Part shown: positions 36,657 to 43,315 of the stretch, piece after piece | Layout of the letters: each line of letters begins with the position of its first letter | How positions within the stretch are numbered: the stretch's first letter is position 1 | Source: Halobacteriovoraceae bacterium | GTDB taxonomy: Bacteria; Bdellovibrionota; Bacteriovoracia; Bacteriovoracales; Bacteriovoracaceae | DNA length: 64,000 nucleotides | NCBI GenBank assembly: GCA_963719505.1 | Contig: CAVRCF010000004.1 | Span: 220,458-284,457, forward strand | Reading direction: 5' to 3' | The notes under the pieces: generated by a model | What the model saw: only the letters and a program-made list of their open reading frames with translations | Database searches by the model: none | Told to the model about the DNA's origin: nothing | Position numbers and translations under genes: made by a program

Positions 36657-38442
36657 ATGGCAAATTTTTACAGTGATGAATCTGAGTGGAAATGGCTTTT
36701 TCATAACGCAATCGATTGGGATAAAATTCTCCCTCTCTACTACCCAGAGTATCCAACTGCAGATGGTTTCAATAATAAAGAAGAAGTATTGCAGTTTATT
36801 GAAGAACTTGTAACAGCTACCGGAGAGTGGTGTGGAACTTCAGTAAAGGATAGAGCTAGGCGCTTGGACGAACAAGGTGCTGGTGAAGTGAAGGATGGAA
36901 AAACAATTCCTGGTGAAGCCCTTCAAGAGTTTTATAACGAGGCCCAAGAACTTGCACTTTCTGGAGTTGCAGCCGATCAAAAATTTGGTGGTATGGGAGC
37001 TCCTGTTATTACGGGACTTATCTCATTTGCTCAAATGAATCGTGCTTGTTTATCTTCAGCAACTCAGTTTGGATTTTATACATCAATCATAGATATGATC
37101 GAGAGATTCTGTCCGAAGAAGATCAAGAAAGACTTATTCCAAAAATTATTGCGGGAGAGTTATCGGGTTCAATGTGTTTAACAGAGCCAAGTGCAGGTAG
37201 TGATGTAGGAAGTGTGAAGACTTCAGCGACCCCTCAAGAAGACGGAACCTATCTTTTAAATGGTTCAAAGATTTTTATCACCAACGGTGGTGGAGGTCTG
37301 GGCTTTGTTCTAGCGAGAATCAAAGGCGCGCCAGAGGGTCTTCATGGAATTTCTCTTTTCCTCTGTGAGCAGGAGGGTCTCAGTGATGACAAGCCTCTTA
37401 ATTACACGATTAGTAAAAGTGAGCACAAGATGGGTCTGCATGGATCTTTTACTTGTGTTGTTAACTATGAGGACTCGATAGCGAAGCTTGTTGGAAAAGA
37501 AAATAAAGGTTTTCAACTTATGCTTCATTTAATGAATGAAGCTAGAATCGCTGTTGGACTTCAGTGTCTTGGCGGAATAGAAGCCAGCCTGGGGTATGCT
37601 AGAGAGTATGCGGCGGAGAGATCTCAATTTGGTAAAAATCTAATAGAGCATCCTCTTTATGCGAGAAATGTTAATGACTGGGAGACGGAAAGAGATGCCT
37701 TTAGAGCGTTAATGGTTGATACAATCACTTATTTTGATGAGTACCAAAAAATAGATATGAAAAAACGTCATGGTGAAGAAGTGACTCCTGAGATGGAGAA
37801 ATTATATAAAGAAGCCAAAAAATGGACGCGAAGAAGAACTCCTTTAGTTAAGATGTATGGTGCTGAGACGTTTACGACTCTTTCTCAAAGAGCAATTCAA
37901 GCTCTTGGTGGTTATGGTTTTATTGAAGAGTATGATGCAGCAAGATTTCATAGAGATTCTTTTGCGACTCTTCTTTATGAGGGAACAACTCAGATTCAAT
38001 CGCTGATGGCGATGAAAGACTTAATGAAGTTTATCATGAGAAGTCCTTCAAAATATTTTACATGGCTTGTGAACGCCAATCCAATTGCAAACTTTTTTGG
38101 TGCTAGTTCAGAAGCAGAAAGTATATTTAATTCAACTCAATATGAATTTAAGAAGAACTTTGTAAAACTTCTCATCAGAACATTAAAACCTGAAACGAAT
38201 ACGGATGATCCAAAAGCGCTTAAGAGGTTTTTTGATTCAAAAAAATGGCTTAAAGAAGAAAATGTTGAAAAGCTTATGATCCATGCTGAAACCATTGAAT
38301 GGCCTTATCATTTACTGAAACATTAAGAGTTCTGCAAAAGCACGCCAATAAAGATGCTTCTAGGCAAGAGCTTTTTGATAAGTATCATAAACTTGTAGCC
38401 CCTAGGTTCGCAGGCATTTATGAAGATTGGCGAAATTGGTAA
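36657..38442 (+). CDS. Acyl-CoA dehydrogenase, frameshifted near 37110 and 38300-38330
   Basis: GSMCLTEPSAGSDVG, NGSKIFITNGG, EHKMGLHGS, LMNEAR, GGYGFIEEY, YEGTTQIQ; the N-terminal ORF and a C-terminal frame ending YEDWRNW* join up. Confidence 0.88.
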
Positions 38443-38476
38443 AAGAAAAAATAAACATAAACTAAAAAAAGGGAGA

Positions 38477-39886
38477 CTAAGTCTTCCTTTTTTTATGTTT
38501 TGAGTTTGAGATTGAAAAATACAGAACAGTGATAAGGCAACTAGCGGCGCCGATATAGATTTCTTCTAAATTGTATAGATCCTTGTAACCTCCTAGTCTC
38601 CAAATCATCGTGGAGATAATTCCCACTCCAGAACTTGCAATAAACTGCATATCCTTAAGTTTTCCTGGATATAAATGTCCAAAAATAATAGGAACGAGTA
38701 AAGCTGCACTTGAAAGACTACCTAAGGTCTTCCATACATTTTTAATATTCCCCTCGAAAACTCCTGCGAGAACAATGGAGAGCAGTCCCACGAAAAGGAC
38801 TCCTATATGGTGGATACTGACTTTTCCTTTCCATCTTTTAGGAACAAGGTCATAGGCCAAGGTAGAGCCTGCTAAAAAGATATAAGAGTCTAAGGTGGAT
38901 AAAATGGTGGCCATGACACCGGCGAGAACAAAGCCTCTGAGACCTTCCGGAAGAAGTTGAATGGCATAAGTGAAATACGCATGACTTGAATCAGCTTGGG
39001 GAATGAGCGCTTTAGCATACATCGCTCCAAAGGTGAGGCTAAGATCAAAGATTATCCAAATACCAGTTGAAATAAGAATACCTTTTTTAGCGGTGTCAAA
39101 ACTCTCTGCTGCAAATGAGCGCTGATAAAAATTGGGATCCACCAAAGTTGATACGGCGATGAGACCCCAACTTAATGATTCGAGTATCCCATGGGTTCCC
39201 AGTGGATTAAAGTAGGAATCGGGTAGAGACTGAAGAGGGGCCAAACCATATTCGGAAAAGGAAAAGACAACAATGAGAACGACAGATGCACACATAACGA
39301 AAAACTGAATTATGTCTGAGAAAACGACGGCTCGAAAACCTCCAAATAAAGAATAACCAAGGACAAGAAAGACACCAGTTGCAATACAAGTTGTAAGCGC
39401 ATATCCAAACAGCATCTGTATTAGGAGACCGATACTGATAGCATAGACGATGGGAATAAGATTAAGAAGGTTTAAGACACCAACCAATTTTGATGATTTA
39501 GGACCAAACATTTGCCCTACAAGATCTGGGAGTGTTAAGGCTTTAAAACCTTTGAGTCTTTTAACGATAAAGAGAGCGAAGGTAATATAGGCAACATACC
39601 AAAAAAAACCTTGGGTGATAAAATTGTAGATCCCGTTTTCAAATGCAATTTGGGAGACACCAAAGATCCCTCCGTACCAAGTTGCAACTAGGGTTGCTAT
39701 AAACATTGGAAGGGTGAGGGTTCTTCCCATAAGCATGAGGTCAATAAAATTTTCTTCTTCAGATTTTGTTTTCTTTTTTAAAAGCTGGCCGCAGTAAACG
39801 AAGGCCATTGTTAAAAAAATAAAGAAAAAAAAGACGATCCAATCCAAGGTACTAAGATATCCTAAAATATCGATTTTATTTTTCAT
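38477..39886 (-). CDS. Sodium:solute symporter (SSS), likely a thiamine or thiamine-precursor transporter
   Basis: ATLVATWYGG, YSLFGGFRAVVFSD, QRSFAA, ATILSTLDS; directly downstream of a TPP riboswitch. Confidence 0.88.
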   Translation of the reverse strand: MKNKIDILGYLSTLDWIVFFFFIFLTMAFVYCGQLLKKKTKSEEENFIDLMLMGRTLTLPMFIATLVATWYGGIFGVSQIAFENGIYNFITQGFFWYVAYITFALFIVKRLKGFKALTLPDLVGQMFGPKSSKLVGVLNLLNLIPIVYAISIGLLIQMLFGYALTTCIATGVFLVLGYSLFGGFRAVVFSDIIQFFVMCASVVLIVVFSFSEYGLAPLQSLPDSYFNPLGTHGILESLSWGLIAVSTLVDPNFYQRSFAAESFDTAKKGILISTGIWIIFDLSLTFGAMYAKALIPQADSSHAYFTYAIQLLPEGLRGFVLAGVMATILSTLDSYIFLAGSTLAYDLVPKRWKGKVSIHHIGVLFVGLLSIVLAGVFEGNIKNVWKTLGSLSSAALLVPIIFGHLYPGKLKDMQFIASSGVGIISTMIWRLGGYKDLYNLEEIYIGAASCLITVLYFSISNSKHKKRKT

Positions 39887-39889
39887 TCC

Positions 39890-39968
39890 GCTCTCCTTAC
39901 GCTCGCATTACCGAGATCAAGTTTTAGGGTATTTCTCAGCCGAAAAAGTTTTCGGCACCCCTGACGTT
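39890..39968 (-). ncRNA. TPP (THI-box) riboswitch
   Basis: Minus strand reads AGGGGTGCCGAAAA-ct-TTTTCGGCTGAGAAATACCCTAAAACTTGATCTCGGTAATGCGAGCGTAAGGAG, matching GGGUG..GCUGAGA..ACCC..AAcYUGAU..GnUAAUrC..GCGnArG. Confidence 0.9.
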
Positions 39969-40970
39969 ATCTATTACTTTTGCTAATTGTTGGTTTAAAT
40001 AAAAGACTTCTCTCTCCCAGTACTGAGAGGAGTTAAAGGTTGGAAAAGCCCTTTTAAAAGATTCATCTTCATAGCGGTGACCTATCCAGCTTGAGAAGTG
40101 AATCATGCGAAGTGCCCTTAAAGTTTCGATGAGTTTAATTTCTCTGTAGTCAAATTCACGCATATCCTCATAGCCATCAAGTAGGATATTGCGTTGATTG
40201 ATTGAGTACTCATCATCACCAGGTGTTACCATCCAAATATCTTGAACGGTAGGAGCGTTGACCATATCGTCAAAGTCGATGAGAAAAGGCCTGTCGTTTG
40301 ACAATAACGTATTGCCGTGATGACAGTCACCGTGAACTCTTTGAAAATTGATTCCCTTAAAGAGGCTCTCTGACTCTTTAAAAATACTTTCAGATACGGT
40401 GGCAAAGCTTTTTTCAAAGTCTAAAGGTATAGTCTTTGAACTTATAAGATATTCTAAATTCTTTTCTCCATAGGTTTGAATATCAAGAGTAATTCTATGC
40501 TTGGCTTTTTTACTCTCACCGATATTATGAAGTCTCGCTAATAGTCTTCCCATTTGAGTTAACAAAGGTTCCGTCCATTCATCAGCCGCTCTTCCCCCTT
40601 TTTTAGGAAAAAGACAAAACCACAGGCCTTGGGAATCTTTGAAAACACTTTCACCATTAAATTTAAGGGGGGCTATTGCAGGTATTTCTTGGTCTATAAG
40701 ATCGAATAAGAACTCGTGCTCTTCAAGAATTTGCTCTTTTGACCATCGACCGGGACGATAAAACTTTATAATTTTAAAGCGGTCGCTGGGGTTTTCAAAA
40801 ACCTCATCCGTCTCTAGCTCTACTTCGTAAACTCTATTTTCCATAGAGTTCATCTGCATTACTCTGCCTGATGATTGGAGCCCTGTACTTTCAAAACTAT
40901 TGAGGACGTGATCAGGAGTTAATGTGTGAAAGTGAATTGTGTCTGCATTTCCCCAGGCACTTTGGGTCAC
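39936..40970 (-). CDS. srkA: Stress-response Ser/Thr kinase SrkA (RdoA/YihE)
   Basis: [52 protein letters not shown]...AFP. Confidence 0.95.
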
Positions 40971-41455
40971 GCTTTACCACAACACTTTTTAAACTTCTTT
41001 CCACTTCCACAGGGGCAAGGTTCATTTCTCCCAACTTTGGGTGTCGCTCTTTTCAGGGGACCTGCTCCAACAATCTTTCCGTCACTATAAAACCATTTGT
41101 CTTCAATTTTTACAAAGTCTGAAACCTCATGGTGAATGATGTCGTTGTCTTCTTTGTCGGAGTATTTTGCCTTAAATTCAACGATTCCCGTTTTATCGTC
41201 AGCTTCTCCGCCTTTTGTATTAACGATCTCAAGACCTTTCCAGGTTGAGGTTGTCGCCCACTGCTTTGCTTCTTCTTTGTTAAAGTCGACCGTTCCAGGC
41301 TTGTGGGAGTCAGCGATAAAATCTATTTTATTTTTACAAAATGCACTGTAGCGTGCTCTCATTAATTTTTCAGCCGTTTCTGGATTTTTACCTTCGTGAT
41401 ATTGACCACAACATGCTTCGTATTCTTTTTCACTCTGACAAGGACATAGCGACAT
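40967..41455 (-). CDS. ychJ: YchJ-family SEC-C motif protein
   Basis: [49 protein letters not shown]. Confidence 0.93.
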
Positions 41456-41466
41456 AGAGTTTTCCT

Positions 41467-42696
41467 TTATTTTAATTTTAACGGATAAGACTTGTTAATC
41501 TGTTTTCCGTTAATCGATTTTATTTTAATTGTTCCGCTTTGATTTGTTGGTTTAAGTTCTTGAGAGGAGATATCAATTGTTCCTTGGTAATCTGCTTCAA
41601 ACGAGACTGTATTTTTTGAACCAATAGCAGAGCCATTTTTCATATTTAATTTTACAACCGGTTTCATGCCATAGTCTAACTTTATAAGAAAGTTGAATTG
41701 AACTTTATTGAACTCAGGCACATTTCTAACATCAAGCTTAACCGGAAAAAGGACTCCTTTTTTAGGTGTATAACTTCCTTTTAGGTCACATTTATCAGTG
41801 TATTCAAGTTTTTCAGTAAAAGAGTTTCCAGAAAGCAAAAGAACAAGCCACTTCGCTTTGTCAAAAGGACAAGAGTCAATCTTAGCTTTGATTTTCTGCG
41901 TTTTTACAGACGCGATGAAGCTTCTGATAAAGTCAGCACTTGCATCAGCTGCGGCATTTTGTTCTTTAGTGATAGCGGAAGCATTGGTTACCACGAGGGC
42001 AAATATTAGAACTTTAAGCATTTTCATTCTTTTTGGGTTGAGTTGAGGGTTAATTTCAATAAACTTAAAGACACCACCACCGATGGCCTTAATAGTGAAG
42101 TTTTCTTTTTTCAATTTTCTTCTAAGGTTATAGATATGAACGTCCAGAGTATTGGGGTGAATGGTAACGTTTTTCCAGATAATATTCACGATATCGCTTC
42201 TATGAAGGGACTTCTCTTTGTTGGCATTAAAGCTTTCAATGATTCTGACTTCTTTATTTGTAAAAGCATCAAGGTTTAAATTAAGAGCTTCTAGAGATTT
42301 TGAGATCTCTTGATTTTGATCTTCTATCGTTTTGAGATGACGTTCAACCTTTGCAAGTGTTTCATTGTAGTTAAATGGTTTTAAAAGATAATCGATAGCA
42401 CCGGCTTCAAAAGCTGTTCTTATCGTTTCGATATCATCAGATGAGGAAATAACGAGATAGGGGGTATTGAGTGTGATATCTGAATCATTTAGGAGTTTTA
42501 TAAAATGTCCATCTTTCAACATAATATCGGCGATGATTAACTCGGGAAGTTGATCATCCTTGAGTCTTACATATTCACTTTTAAATTCATCGAAAGCCTC
42601 AAAAAAAGTAATTGAATAAATTTCTTCATCAAAAATATTTTGATAAACCGGTTGGAGGTCCACCATATCTTCAATAATCCATAATGTTCTTTTCAT
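41467..42696 (-). CDS. OmpR-like response regulator read in frame into a signal-peptide-bearing hypothetical protein (possibly two genes)
   Basis: REC (IIED, DIML, DYLLKPF) plus wHTH ([14 protein letters not shown]), then [18 protein letters not shown] at ~42027 and a ~180-aa unrelated domain. Confidence 0.75.
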
Positions 42697-42718
42697 CTTT
42701 GTTCCTCGTTAGCAATTT

Positions 42719-43315
42719 CTATTCAGTGGCTGGTGGAGTTATAAAATTTAATTCATTTAATACATTTGCGAGTTCAATTAGAGGCAGCCCTACTATTGCG
42801 CTGTGATCAGTGGTTTCGATCTTTTCAAACAGACTGATTCCGTGGAGCTCAAGTTTGTAACTGCCAGCACAGTCATAGGGTTCATCTTTATTGATATAGT
42901 GCTCAAGTTGAGAGTCACTTAATTGTCTCATTGTCAGCGTCGTTATATTTGTTTTCGTGATAGATTTTCCCTTAAAGAATACAGTGAAGCTTGTAACGAG
43001 TCTATGCTCCTTTCCATTAAGAAACCTTAATTGTTTGAGCGCGTTATCAAAATTTTTGGGTTTGCTAAGAAAGAGGCCTTCACATTCAGCCAACTGATCG
43101 GATCCTATTACAATCGATTCAGGATATTTCGTTGCAATGGCTTTGGCTTTCTCTAATCCTAGTCGCTGTGCTAACTCAATGGGATCTTTTATGATTGCTT
43201 TAAACTGGTCTTCATCTACCATCGGAGCAAGGCATTCAAACTTATGACCAAGCCTCAAAAGAAGCTCTTTGCGATACTTTGATGTACTTGCTAGAATCAG
43301 ATTTTTCATACACAA
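42719..43315 (-). CDS. maf: Maf-family nucleotide pyrophosphatase (YceF-like)
   Basis: LILASTSKYR, IVIGSDQ, SKP, PYDCAGSYK, GLP. Confidence 0.92.
   Translation of the reverse strand: MCMKNLILASTSKYRKELLLRLGHKFECLAPMVDEDQFKAIIKDPIELAQRLGLEKAKAIATKYPESIVIGSDQLAECEGLFLSKPKNFDNALKQLRFLNGKEHRLVTSFTVFFKGKSITKTNITTLTMRQLSDSQLEHYINKDEPYDCAGSYKLELHGISLFEKIETTDHSAIVGLPLIELANVLNELNFITPPATE

What the first reader, a model, noticed from the sequence alone, without database searches (positions are those of the whole stretch)
39886..39968. TPP riboswitch written into the end of srkA; its conserved UGAGA is the kinase stop codon
Seen: the last srkA codons ([13 protein letters not shown]; GTC AGG GGT GCC GAA AAC TTT TTC GGC TGA) also form the aptamer's P2/P3. 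The TGA stop is the UGA of the GCUGAGA motif. The aptamer's 3' end contains the AAGGAG Shine-Dalgarno of the SSS transporter a few nt before its ATG, so there is no separate expression platform. Known: UGAGA in J2/3 binds the pyrimidine of TPP, and TPP switches control SSS-family thiamine-related transporters. Inference: ribosomes terminating on srkA would melt the sensing pocket, coupling thiamine sensing to upstream translation (ychJ-srkA also overlap), unless a promoter lies inside srkA.
Basis: partly seen in the sequence, partly recalled or inferred. Interest (0 to 1): 0.72.

Follow-up and report, generated by a model that had tools for sequence, protein, structure and literature searches.

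The report
Thiamine riboswitch overlapping a kinase gene
The last ten codons and the stop codon of a kinase gene double as half of a vitamin-B1-sensing RNA switch placed in front of a likely thiamine importer, an overlap that arose twice in one bacterial clade and that would make every ribosome finishing the kinase briefly unfold the sensor, though it looks more like tolerated compaction than a selected coupling.

Summary
Observation confirmed: RF00059 hit at 39972-39876 (62.8 bits, cut-off 54.3); srkA's TGA is the UGA of GCUGAGA; AAGGAG lies 6 nt before the SSS ATG. Stems covary (0/500 shuffles). The stop-in-UGAGA detail is not conserved. Of 22 distinct srkA-sss junctions (one Bacteriovoracaceae clade), 12 carry the switch: 4 overlap srkA (two origins, AU p 3e-15), only 2 stop at UGAGA, and 8 stop 9-21 nt upstream. 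Ten have no switch, with sss starting at the srkA stop. The overlap is a derived short deletion that keeps the kinase tail at normal length. It is rare: 0 of 98 other TPP loci overlapped a Pfam-supported upstream gene. SD-in-aptamer control is known and family-wide. Folding models show no direct SD opening, and no RNA run was listed. The scan noted genes inside glutamine riboswitches elsewhere, not this case. New variant; moderate interest.

The parts
39876..39972 (-). TPP riboswitch aptamer (RF00059), SD-embedded type
   Evidence: 62.8 bits, E 5.8e-10; covariation over 8 linked aptamers
39936..40970 (-). srkA/YihE serine/threonine kinase, 344 aa; its last 10 codons and stop lie in the aptamer
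   Evidence: PRK11768 above cut-off; E. coli YihE 1zyl, E 1e-61
39957..39967 (-). 5' strands of P1 and P2, read as srkA codons N-V-R-G
   Evidence: sequence
39939..39956 (-). P3 hairpin (7 bp, 4-nt loop), read as srkA codons A-E-N-F-F-G
   Evidence: compensatory G-C to A-U change in L061
39934..39938 (-). UGAGA of J2/3; its UGA (39938-39936) is the srkA stop
39896..39921 (-). P4/P5 arm (pyrophosphate-sensing side by established TPP structure), downstream of the stop
39893..39898 (-). Shine-Dalgarno AAGGAG of the transporter, inside P4-J4/1-P1, 6 nt before ATG
38477..39886 (-). sodium:solute symporter (SSF), 469 aa, likely thiamine importer
   Evidence: PF00474, 85 bits against 22.8; substrate inferred from the switch
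40967..41455 (-). ychJ-family gene, overlaps the srkA start by 4 nt; conserved upstream partner
38463..38495 (.). 15-bp terminator-like hairpin over the sss stop, likely the end of the message
   Evidence: scored on the + strand; A/T tracts flank both sides

Best explanation
This is a TPP riboswitch whose 5' half is also the end of srkA; it likely represses the downstream SSS transporter by burying the Shine-Dalgarno when TPP binds, likely from inside a ychJ-srkA-sss message, and the overlap likely arose as a tolerated short deletion rather than as a selected coupling device. Shown: the aptamer, its covariation, the SD position, the overlap, its patchy distribution and two origins. Inferred: (1) TPP binding stabilises P4/P1 and blocks initiation; (2) the ancestor of the clade had srkA ending 9-21 nt before the aptamer; a deletion of about 33 nt relative to G003 removed the old tail, stop and spacer, so srkA runs on to the first in-frame stop; (3) this was tolerated because the tail varies in sequence and kept its usual length (26-28 residues after the YW motif) and an aromatic end; (4) each ribosome finishing srkA would unfold P1/P2/P3 and release TPP, so repression would be leakier or need more TPP, as a side effect.
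For: Aptamer. Covariation: 93.8% of cells paired and covariation score 0.293, each 0/500 shuffles, with slid controls at 38-62% (8 of the 12 linked aptamers given). Distribution: 22 distinct junctions; 12 with a switch, of which 4 overlap (G000 -23, L061 -23, G002 -17, G104 -15 nt, stop relative to the P2 GGGG) and 8 stop upstream (9, 9, 9, 10, 10, 16, 21, 21 nt); 10 without. The SrkA tree puts all 22 in one clade (100/99) and G000+L061+G002 together (99/94), sister to non-overlapping L063/L064. One origin of the four overlaps is rejected (p-AU 3e-15). Tails in the clade run 23-30 residues after YW and the overlapping ones 26-28; 75 of 107 distinct SrkA tails have an aromatic residue in the last three, as do all four overlapping tails. 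Operon: ychJ-srkA-sss order in 17 of 19 loci given (L165 lacks upstream DNA, L170 ends early). In the 10 switch-less junctions sss starts between about -26 and +10 nt of the srkA stop. Promoter-like score of 6 or more just upstream in 22/36 free-standing switches against 1/12 linked. No thiC or thiE over cut-off in 5 genomes.
Against: Two independent overlaps in 12 loci, against 0 of 98 Pfam-supported overlaps elsewhere, may be more than tolerance; the tight spacer makes such deletions easy, so this is not decisive. Linked switches score higher for a promoter than switch-less junctions (median 4.0 against 0.9, p 0.002), and G104 has a strong candidate (9.9), so some may have an internal promoter. 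Against unlinked srkA ends the difference is p 0.09. Pairs with a two-sided change were not above shuffles (6 against 4.4, 58/500), and the whole-aptamer folding z-score is only -0.9. TPP binding, the transcript and the substrate were not measured.
Confidence: 0.55

Rival explanations
1. Ribosome-reset switch: srkA translation is a working second input. Each terminating ribosome strips TPP, so the interval between ribosomes, not an RNA-polymerase pause, would set the time available for binding and so the TPP threshold. Selection would keep the aptamer within reach of the stop.
For: The srkA stop lies inside the aptamer or within 21 nt of the P2 GGGG in 12 of 12 linked switches, and within 10 nt or inside in 9 of 12; 2 of 36 free-standing family switches have an upstream stop within 21 nt. 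Two independent overlaps. The proximal promoter signal is mostly lost. With published kon values (2.2e4 and 2.2e5 per M per s) and the rule threshold = 1/(kon x t) (PMC4841613, passages), a 10-s interval gives 4.5 or 0.45 uM and a 60-s interval 0.76 or 0.08 uM, so the effect could fall in the working range.
Against: 10 of 22 junctions have no switch (5 changes on the tree), and none of 9 such genomes searched has an RF00059 match (81-99% complete), so the device looks dispensable. The stop position varies. Masking the ribosome-covered RNA lowered the cost of opening the SD in 0 of the 4 overlap loci at +7 nt and in 2 of 4 at +12 nt. At 300-s intervals the predicted threshold is only 0.02-0.15 uM. 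No link between SrkA and thiamine was found.
Confidence: 0.22
2. Ordinary 5' leader: a promoter (or a processing site) inside srkA makes a separate riboswitch-sss message, so the overlap exists in DNA only and srkA ribosomes do not matter for most sss expression.
For: Free-standing family switches have a promoter signal right before the aptamer (22/36, combined p 2e-11), so this is the family default. G104 keeps a 9.9-scoring candidate in srkA and G002 a 5.7 one. Linked switches outscore switch-less junctions (p 0.002). G000 has consensus matches about 480-830 nt upstream inside srkA.
Against: G000 scores 1.3 at the proximal position, matched or exceeded by 55% of 40 windows of its own srkA. 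The 23 promoter-like matches in the region equal chance (18.9 +/- 3.6). The two best-conserved promoter-like positions in srkA are shared with switch-less loci, and none of the top 12 is in the last 55 codons.
Confidence: 0.17
3. Decaying switch: the overlap has disabled regulation and the aptamer is on its way to being deleted, as in the switch-less relatives.
For: Repeated absence (10 of 22); G107 and G109 keep only TAAGGA at the junction, like the last bases of the aptamer. P1 in G000 is weak (two pairs, a bulge, two pairs).
Against: Conserved bases are intact in all four overlap loci. G000, L061 and G002 differ by compensatory changes in P3 and P5, and a synonymous Asn codon change (AAC/AAT) tracks its P1 partner base (read by eye). 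The overlap has lasted across 70% SrkA identity.
Confidence: 0.06

Closest known systems
TPP riboswitches acting by direct translation attenuation (Barrick and Breaker 2007, PMC2258182; section 9 and passages read)
   Same: The purine-rich 3' end of the aptamer serves as the ribosome-binding site, with no separate platform; the paper names TPP among the classes where this is most common.
   Different: The passages read describe no overlap with the end of an upstream gene; overlaps of more than 60 nt were screened out as annotation errors. Here 37 nt are shared with a real kinase gene.
TPP switch in front of thiV/SSSP sodium:solute symporters (PMC11452348; passages read)
   Same: TPP riboswitch upstream of an SSS-family transporter in a marine organism lacking full thiamine synthesis.
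   Different: ThiV carries HMP. Here thiE was not found over cut-off and a thiN-like gene is present, which points to thiamine itself. Orthology to ThiV was not tested.
Translated uORF inside the M. tuberculosis metE B12 aptamer (PMC11260477; abstract and section 19 read)
   Same: Translation runs inside a ligand-sensing aptamer of a translational OFF switch; blocking it raised downstream expression more than 10-fold while B12 sensing was kept.
   Different: That is a short dedicated uORF in a 5' leader. Here it is the 3' end and stop of a full-length conserved gene inside a likely operon.
Ribosome-sensing 3'-UTR of turnip yellow mosaic virus (PMC6265322; abstract only)
   Same: An RNA structure next to a stop codon changes conformation when ribosomes translate the upstream frame.
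   Different: Eukaryotic virus, no metabolite aptamer.

Membership tests
TPP riboswitch (RF00059) | Covariance-model score above the gathering threshold | tested here: met
   62.8 against 54.3 bits
TPP riboswitch (RF00059) | P1-P5 fold with conserved UGAGA and the P4/P5 core | tested here: met
   P1 is weak in G000
TPP riboswitch (RF00059) | Upstream of a thiamine-related gene | tested here: inconclusive
   SSF transporter; substrate inferred only from context and missing synthesis genes
TPP riboswitch (RF00059) | Binds TPP and changes expression | not testable with these tools
   needs probing and reporters
Direct translation attenuation (SD in aptamer) | SD within the aptamer's 3' end at initiation distance, no terminator before the start | tested here: met
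   AAGGAG 6 nt before ATG; no terminator-like site between; same layout in most family switches listed
SrkA/YihE kinase (PRK11768) | Score above the NCBIfam cut-off over the full model, normal C-terminal length | tested here: met
   373 against 194 bits; tail 28 residues after YW, clade range 23-30
ThiV/SSSP HMP-thiamine symporters | Orthology to SAR11 ThiV | not tested
   no ThiV sequence was compared; only SSF membership shown
Translation-coupled riboswitch (uORF-modulated type) | A translated frame overlaps the aptamer on the same RNA | tested here: inconclusive
   DNA overlap shown; same-transcript status inferred from gene order and promoter scores
Translation-coupled riboswitch (uORF-modulated type) | Translation of that frame changes downstream output | not testable with these tools
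   the folding model shows no direct SD opening; an effect through ligand release needs experiments

The most novel reading that the evidence does not exclude
A ribosome-reset riboswitch: in this clade the TPP switch has lost its own promoter, sits inside an operon within reach of the srkA stop, and is wiped clean by every terminating ribosome, so translation traffic on an unrelated kinase gene acts as the kinetic timer that sets the thiamine threshold. The overlap in G000 is the extreme form, and relatives supply a natural series (overlap, 9, 10, 16, 21 nt, no switch).
Probability: 0.22. Interest if true: 0.72.

Novelty: new variant of a known kind. Interest (0 to 1): 0.45.

Why it matters
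Riboswitches are treated as non-coding leaders, and a large survey discarded long overlaps with reading frames as annotation errors. This is a well-supported natural case in which a metabolite-binding pocket is also the end of a full-length conserved protein gene, with one short stretch keeping both base pairs and a normal kinase tail, and it happened twice. If the switch works from inside the operon message, the clade offers a ready-made series of stop-to-aptamer distances for asking how upstream translation affects ligand sensing. If the ribosome sets the threshold, that is a new kind of timer for kinetic riboswitch control. If not, it is a neat example of compaction with a known mechanism.

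Tried and rejected
RNA evidence: no RNA holder was listed for window 38400-42800; this says nothing about expression. Suppressed synonymous change: G000 against L061 shows 10/12 identical codons in the last bin against 130/281 elsewhere, but switch-less pairs show 9/11 and 11/11, so it is not specific. Direct opening of the SD by the terminating ribosome: not seen consistently in ViennaRNA at 20 C with 7- or 12-nt masks (G000 5.7 kcal/mol free, 6.2 and 4.9 masked; lower at +7 in 4 of 12 loci); the model has no ligand or tertiary term and the mask lengths are recalled values. Conserved internal promoter in srkA: none specific to switch loci. Frame bias of UGAGA with srkA (9 of 12; 5 of 8 non-overlapping, two of them sisters): too few to call. 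Switch moved elsewhere in switch-less genomes: 0 of 9 searched had RF00059. The SSS tree finished only as a quick tree; it also keeps G000+L061+G002 together and apart from G104 but does not recover the linked loci as one clade. Literature: ten searches listed no paper describing a riboswitch that overlaps the end of an upstream full-length gene; most listed papers were seen as listings only, the searches match exact words, most subscription papers are missing, and no supplements were read. A link through YihE binding Rho (PMC9663540, passages) was looked at and dropped: nothing ties it to this switch.

Full report
What is there. The window holds one Rfam match, a full-length TPP riboswitch at 39972-39876 on the minus strand (62.8 bits, cut-off 54.3, E 5.8e-10), the only one in the genome G000 (83.5% complete). 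Upstream is srkA (40970-39936, PRK11768 above cut-off; homologous to E. coli YihE), and downstream a 469-aa sodium:solute symporter. The last ten srkA codons form the 5' strands of P1 and P2 and the whole of P3, and the stop TGA is the first three bases of UGAGA. That UGAGA binds the pyrimidine of TPP is established knowledge, recalled. AAGGAG lies across P4, J4/1 and P1, 6 nt before the ATG. Record titles of the closest titled relatives name Bacteriovoracaceae/Halobacteriovoraceae.

Is the aptamer alive? Over 8 of the 12 linked aptamers (four left out: two with long insertions, and L063, L064), 93.8% of cells pair and the covariation score is 0.293, each reached by 0 of 500 shuffles; slid controls give 38-62%; the count of pairs with a two-sided change is not above shuffles (58/500). 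Inside the coding part, G000 and L061 differ by a G-C to A-U swap in P3 that leaves Phe unchanged on one side, and G002 builds a different P3 that reads A-Q-Y-Y-stop. thiC and thiE were not found over cut-off in 5 genomes, nor thiL. Pfam TPK found nothing in 5 genomes, but a weak thiN-like match exists in G000 (E 8.5e-5, below cut-off; no Pfam hit). A thiamine importer under TPP control is therefore likely, as for thiV (PMC11452348, passages), but the substrate is inferred.

How relatives look. srkA was found in 45 of 61 genomes and the transporter in 164 of 237 family genomes. I examined the upstream region of 108 distinct transporter loci, including metagenome contigs, not all 164. srkA lies directly before the transporter in 22 distinct junctions after merging duplicates (L170 is a cut duplicate of L078). 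These form one clade on the SrkA tree (100/99). Twelve carry the switch. Four overlap: G000 and L061 stop at UGAGA, G002 and G104 stop two codons earlier in P3. Eight stop 9-21 nt before the P2 GGGG. Ten have no switch, with the transporter start at or overlapping the srkA stop; 0 of 9 such genomes searched had a TPP match elsewhere. G000+L061+G002 are one clade (99/94) whose sister does not overlap; G104 is far away and uses another frame across P2; a single origin is rejected (p-AU 3e-15; 2 changes for overlap, 5 for switch presence). Change counts give no direction. Loss of the switch is the simpler reading because free-standing transporter genes often carry it (36 of 86 by a motif search that misses some cmscan hits) and two switch-less junctions keep TAAGGA.

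How it arose (inference). Compared with G003, G000 lacks about 33 nt between the D-N codons and the aptamer: the old tail, stop and spacer. srkA then runs to the first in-frame stop. The result is a tail of normal length (28 residues after YW; clade 23-30) that still ends aromatic, as 75 of 107 distinct SrkA tails do. So the stop in UGAGA is the nearest stop after a small deletion, not a conserved design. It is still uncommon: of 102 TPP loci from four phylum samples (G000 and hits without a locus left out; five are unlinked family members), 98 had enough upstream DNA; 6 had a long overlapping frame, all in DNA of 63% G+C or more and none with a Pfam match; 4 had a stop within 1-21 nt, one with a Pfam match. 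A missing Pfam match does not prove a frame spurious.

Same message or not? ychJ-srkA-sss is conserved (17 of 19 loci given). In the window, seven minus-strand frames from a speA-like gene (name recalled) to sss follow with gaps of 23 nt or less until the switch, and a 15-bp hairpin covers the sss stop. Using approximate sigma-70 weights from memory, the 62 nt before the aptamer score 6 or more in 22 of 36 free-standing switches (combined shuffle p 2e-11), 1 of 12 linked (p 0.13), 0 of 10 switch-less junctions and 1 of 22 unlinked srkA ends (the cut of 6 was chosen after seeing the scores; kin are not independent). G000 scores 1.3. Against this, linked switches outscore switch-less junctions (p 0.002) and G104 has a strong candidate. 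An operon-internal switch is likely for G000 but not shown.

Mechanism. The SD-in-aptamer layout is the known direct translation attenuation class, said to be commonest for TPP, preQ1 and SAM-I (PMC2258182, section 9 read), and it is family-wide here. If srkA and sss share a message, a ribosome finishing srkA must pass through the pyrimidine-sensing arm and would release TPP. It does not appear to open the SD directly: the P4/P5 hairpin lies beyond the masked part and the opening cost does not fall consistently. Any effect would be kinetic. With kon of 2.2e4-2.2e5 per M per s and a switch point near 1/(kon x t) (PMC4841613, passages, E. coli values at 37 C), ribosome intervals of 10 s give 0.45-4.5 uM, 60 s 0.08-0.76 uM and 300 s 0.02-0.15 uM. 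So the effect matters only if srkA is translated often; its rate is unknown. The closest tested precedent, a uORF in the metE B12 aptamer, changed expression more than 10-fold while sensing was kept (PMC11260477, section 19 read).

Verdict. Real, rare and twice evolved, but patchy and often deleted. Most likely a standard SD-burying TPP switch squeezed into an operon, with the overlap tolerated (0.55). A ribosome-reset timer is not excluded (0.22); a separate leader from an internal promoter (0.17) and decay (0.06) are the other rivals. Ten paper searches listed no description of a riboswitch overlapping the end of a full upstream gene; coverage is partial and no supplements were read. Earlier notes of this scan describe small genes nested in phage glutamine riboswitches (unchecked), and none this locus type. 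Novelty: new variant of a known kind; interest 0.45.

Noticed in passing
window 41467-42696 (-): A 409-aa frame joins a response regulator (about residues 1-215) to an unrelated downstream protein; G002 (L168) and L061 have a stop between the two, so G000 has either a recent fusion or an assembly error.
   Followed up: partly
L067 2673-2774 (-) and 2890-2992 (+); also L066, L069, L074, L075: Two TPP riboswitches back to back on opposite strands, about 115 nt apart in L067 and L066 and further apart in the others, one before the transporter and one before a divergent gene.
   Followed up: no
L006 (G001) and L037 (G110), srkA-sss junction: TPP aptamers with long insertions: about 105 nt after UGAGA in G001 (30.2 bits, below cut-off) and about 125 nt in P3 of G110 (not listed by cmscan).
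   Followed up: partly
L035 (G107) and L036 (G109), srkA stop: The srkA stop TAA is the start of TAAGGA, the SD, as if the whole aptamer had been deleted between two TAA words.
   Followed up: partly
SrkA C-termini, 107 distinct tails: 44 end in Tyr and 12 in Phe; 75 have an aromatic residue in the last three positions although the rest of the tail varies. Function unexamined.
   Followed up: no
G000:C3:270091-270537 (L250 1405-2001): Divergent thiamine-pyrophosphokinase-like frame (TIGR01378 E 8.5e-5, below cut-off; no Pfam hit); not found with this model in G002, G104 or G013.
   Followed up: partly
window 38463-38495: The terminator-like hairpin overlaps the last codons and stop of sss, so the transporter gene has structured RNA at both ends.
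   Followed up: no
window 36657-38326 (+): An acyl-CoA dehydrogenase-like region appears as two overlapping frames (174 and 426 aa), suggesting a frameshift or an assembly error.
   Followed up: no
12 switch-bearing srkA-sss junctions: The UGA of UGAGA is in frame with srkA in 9 of 12, including 5 of 8 that do not overlap; possibly a backup stop, too few to test.
   Followed up: partly
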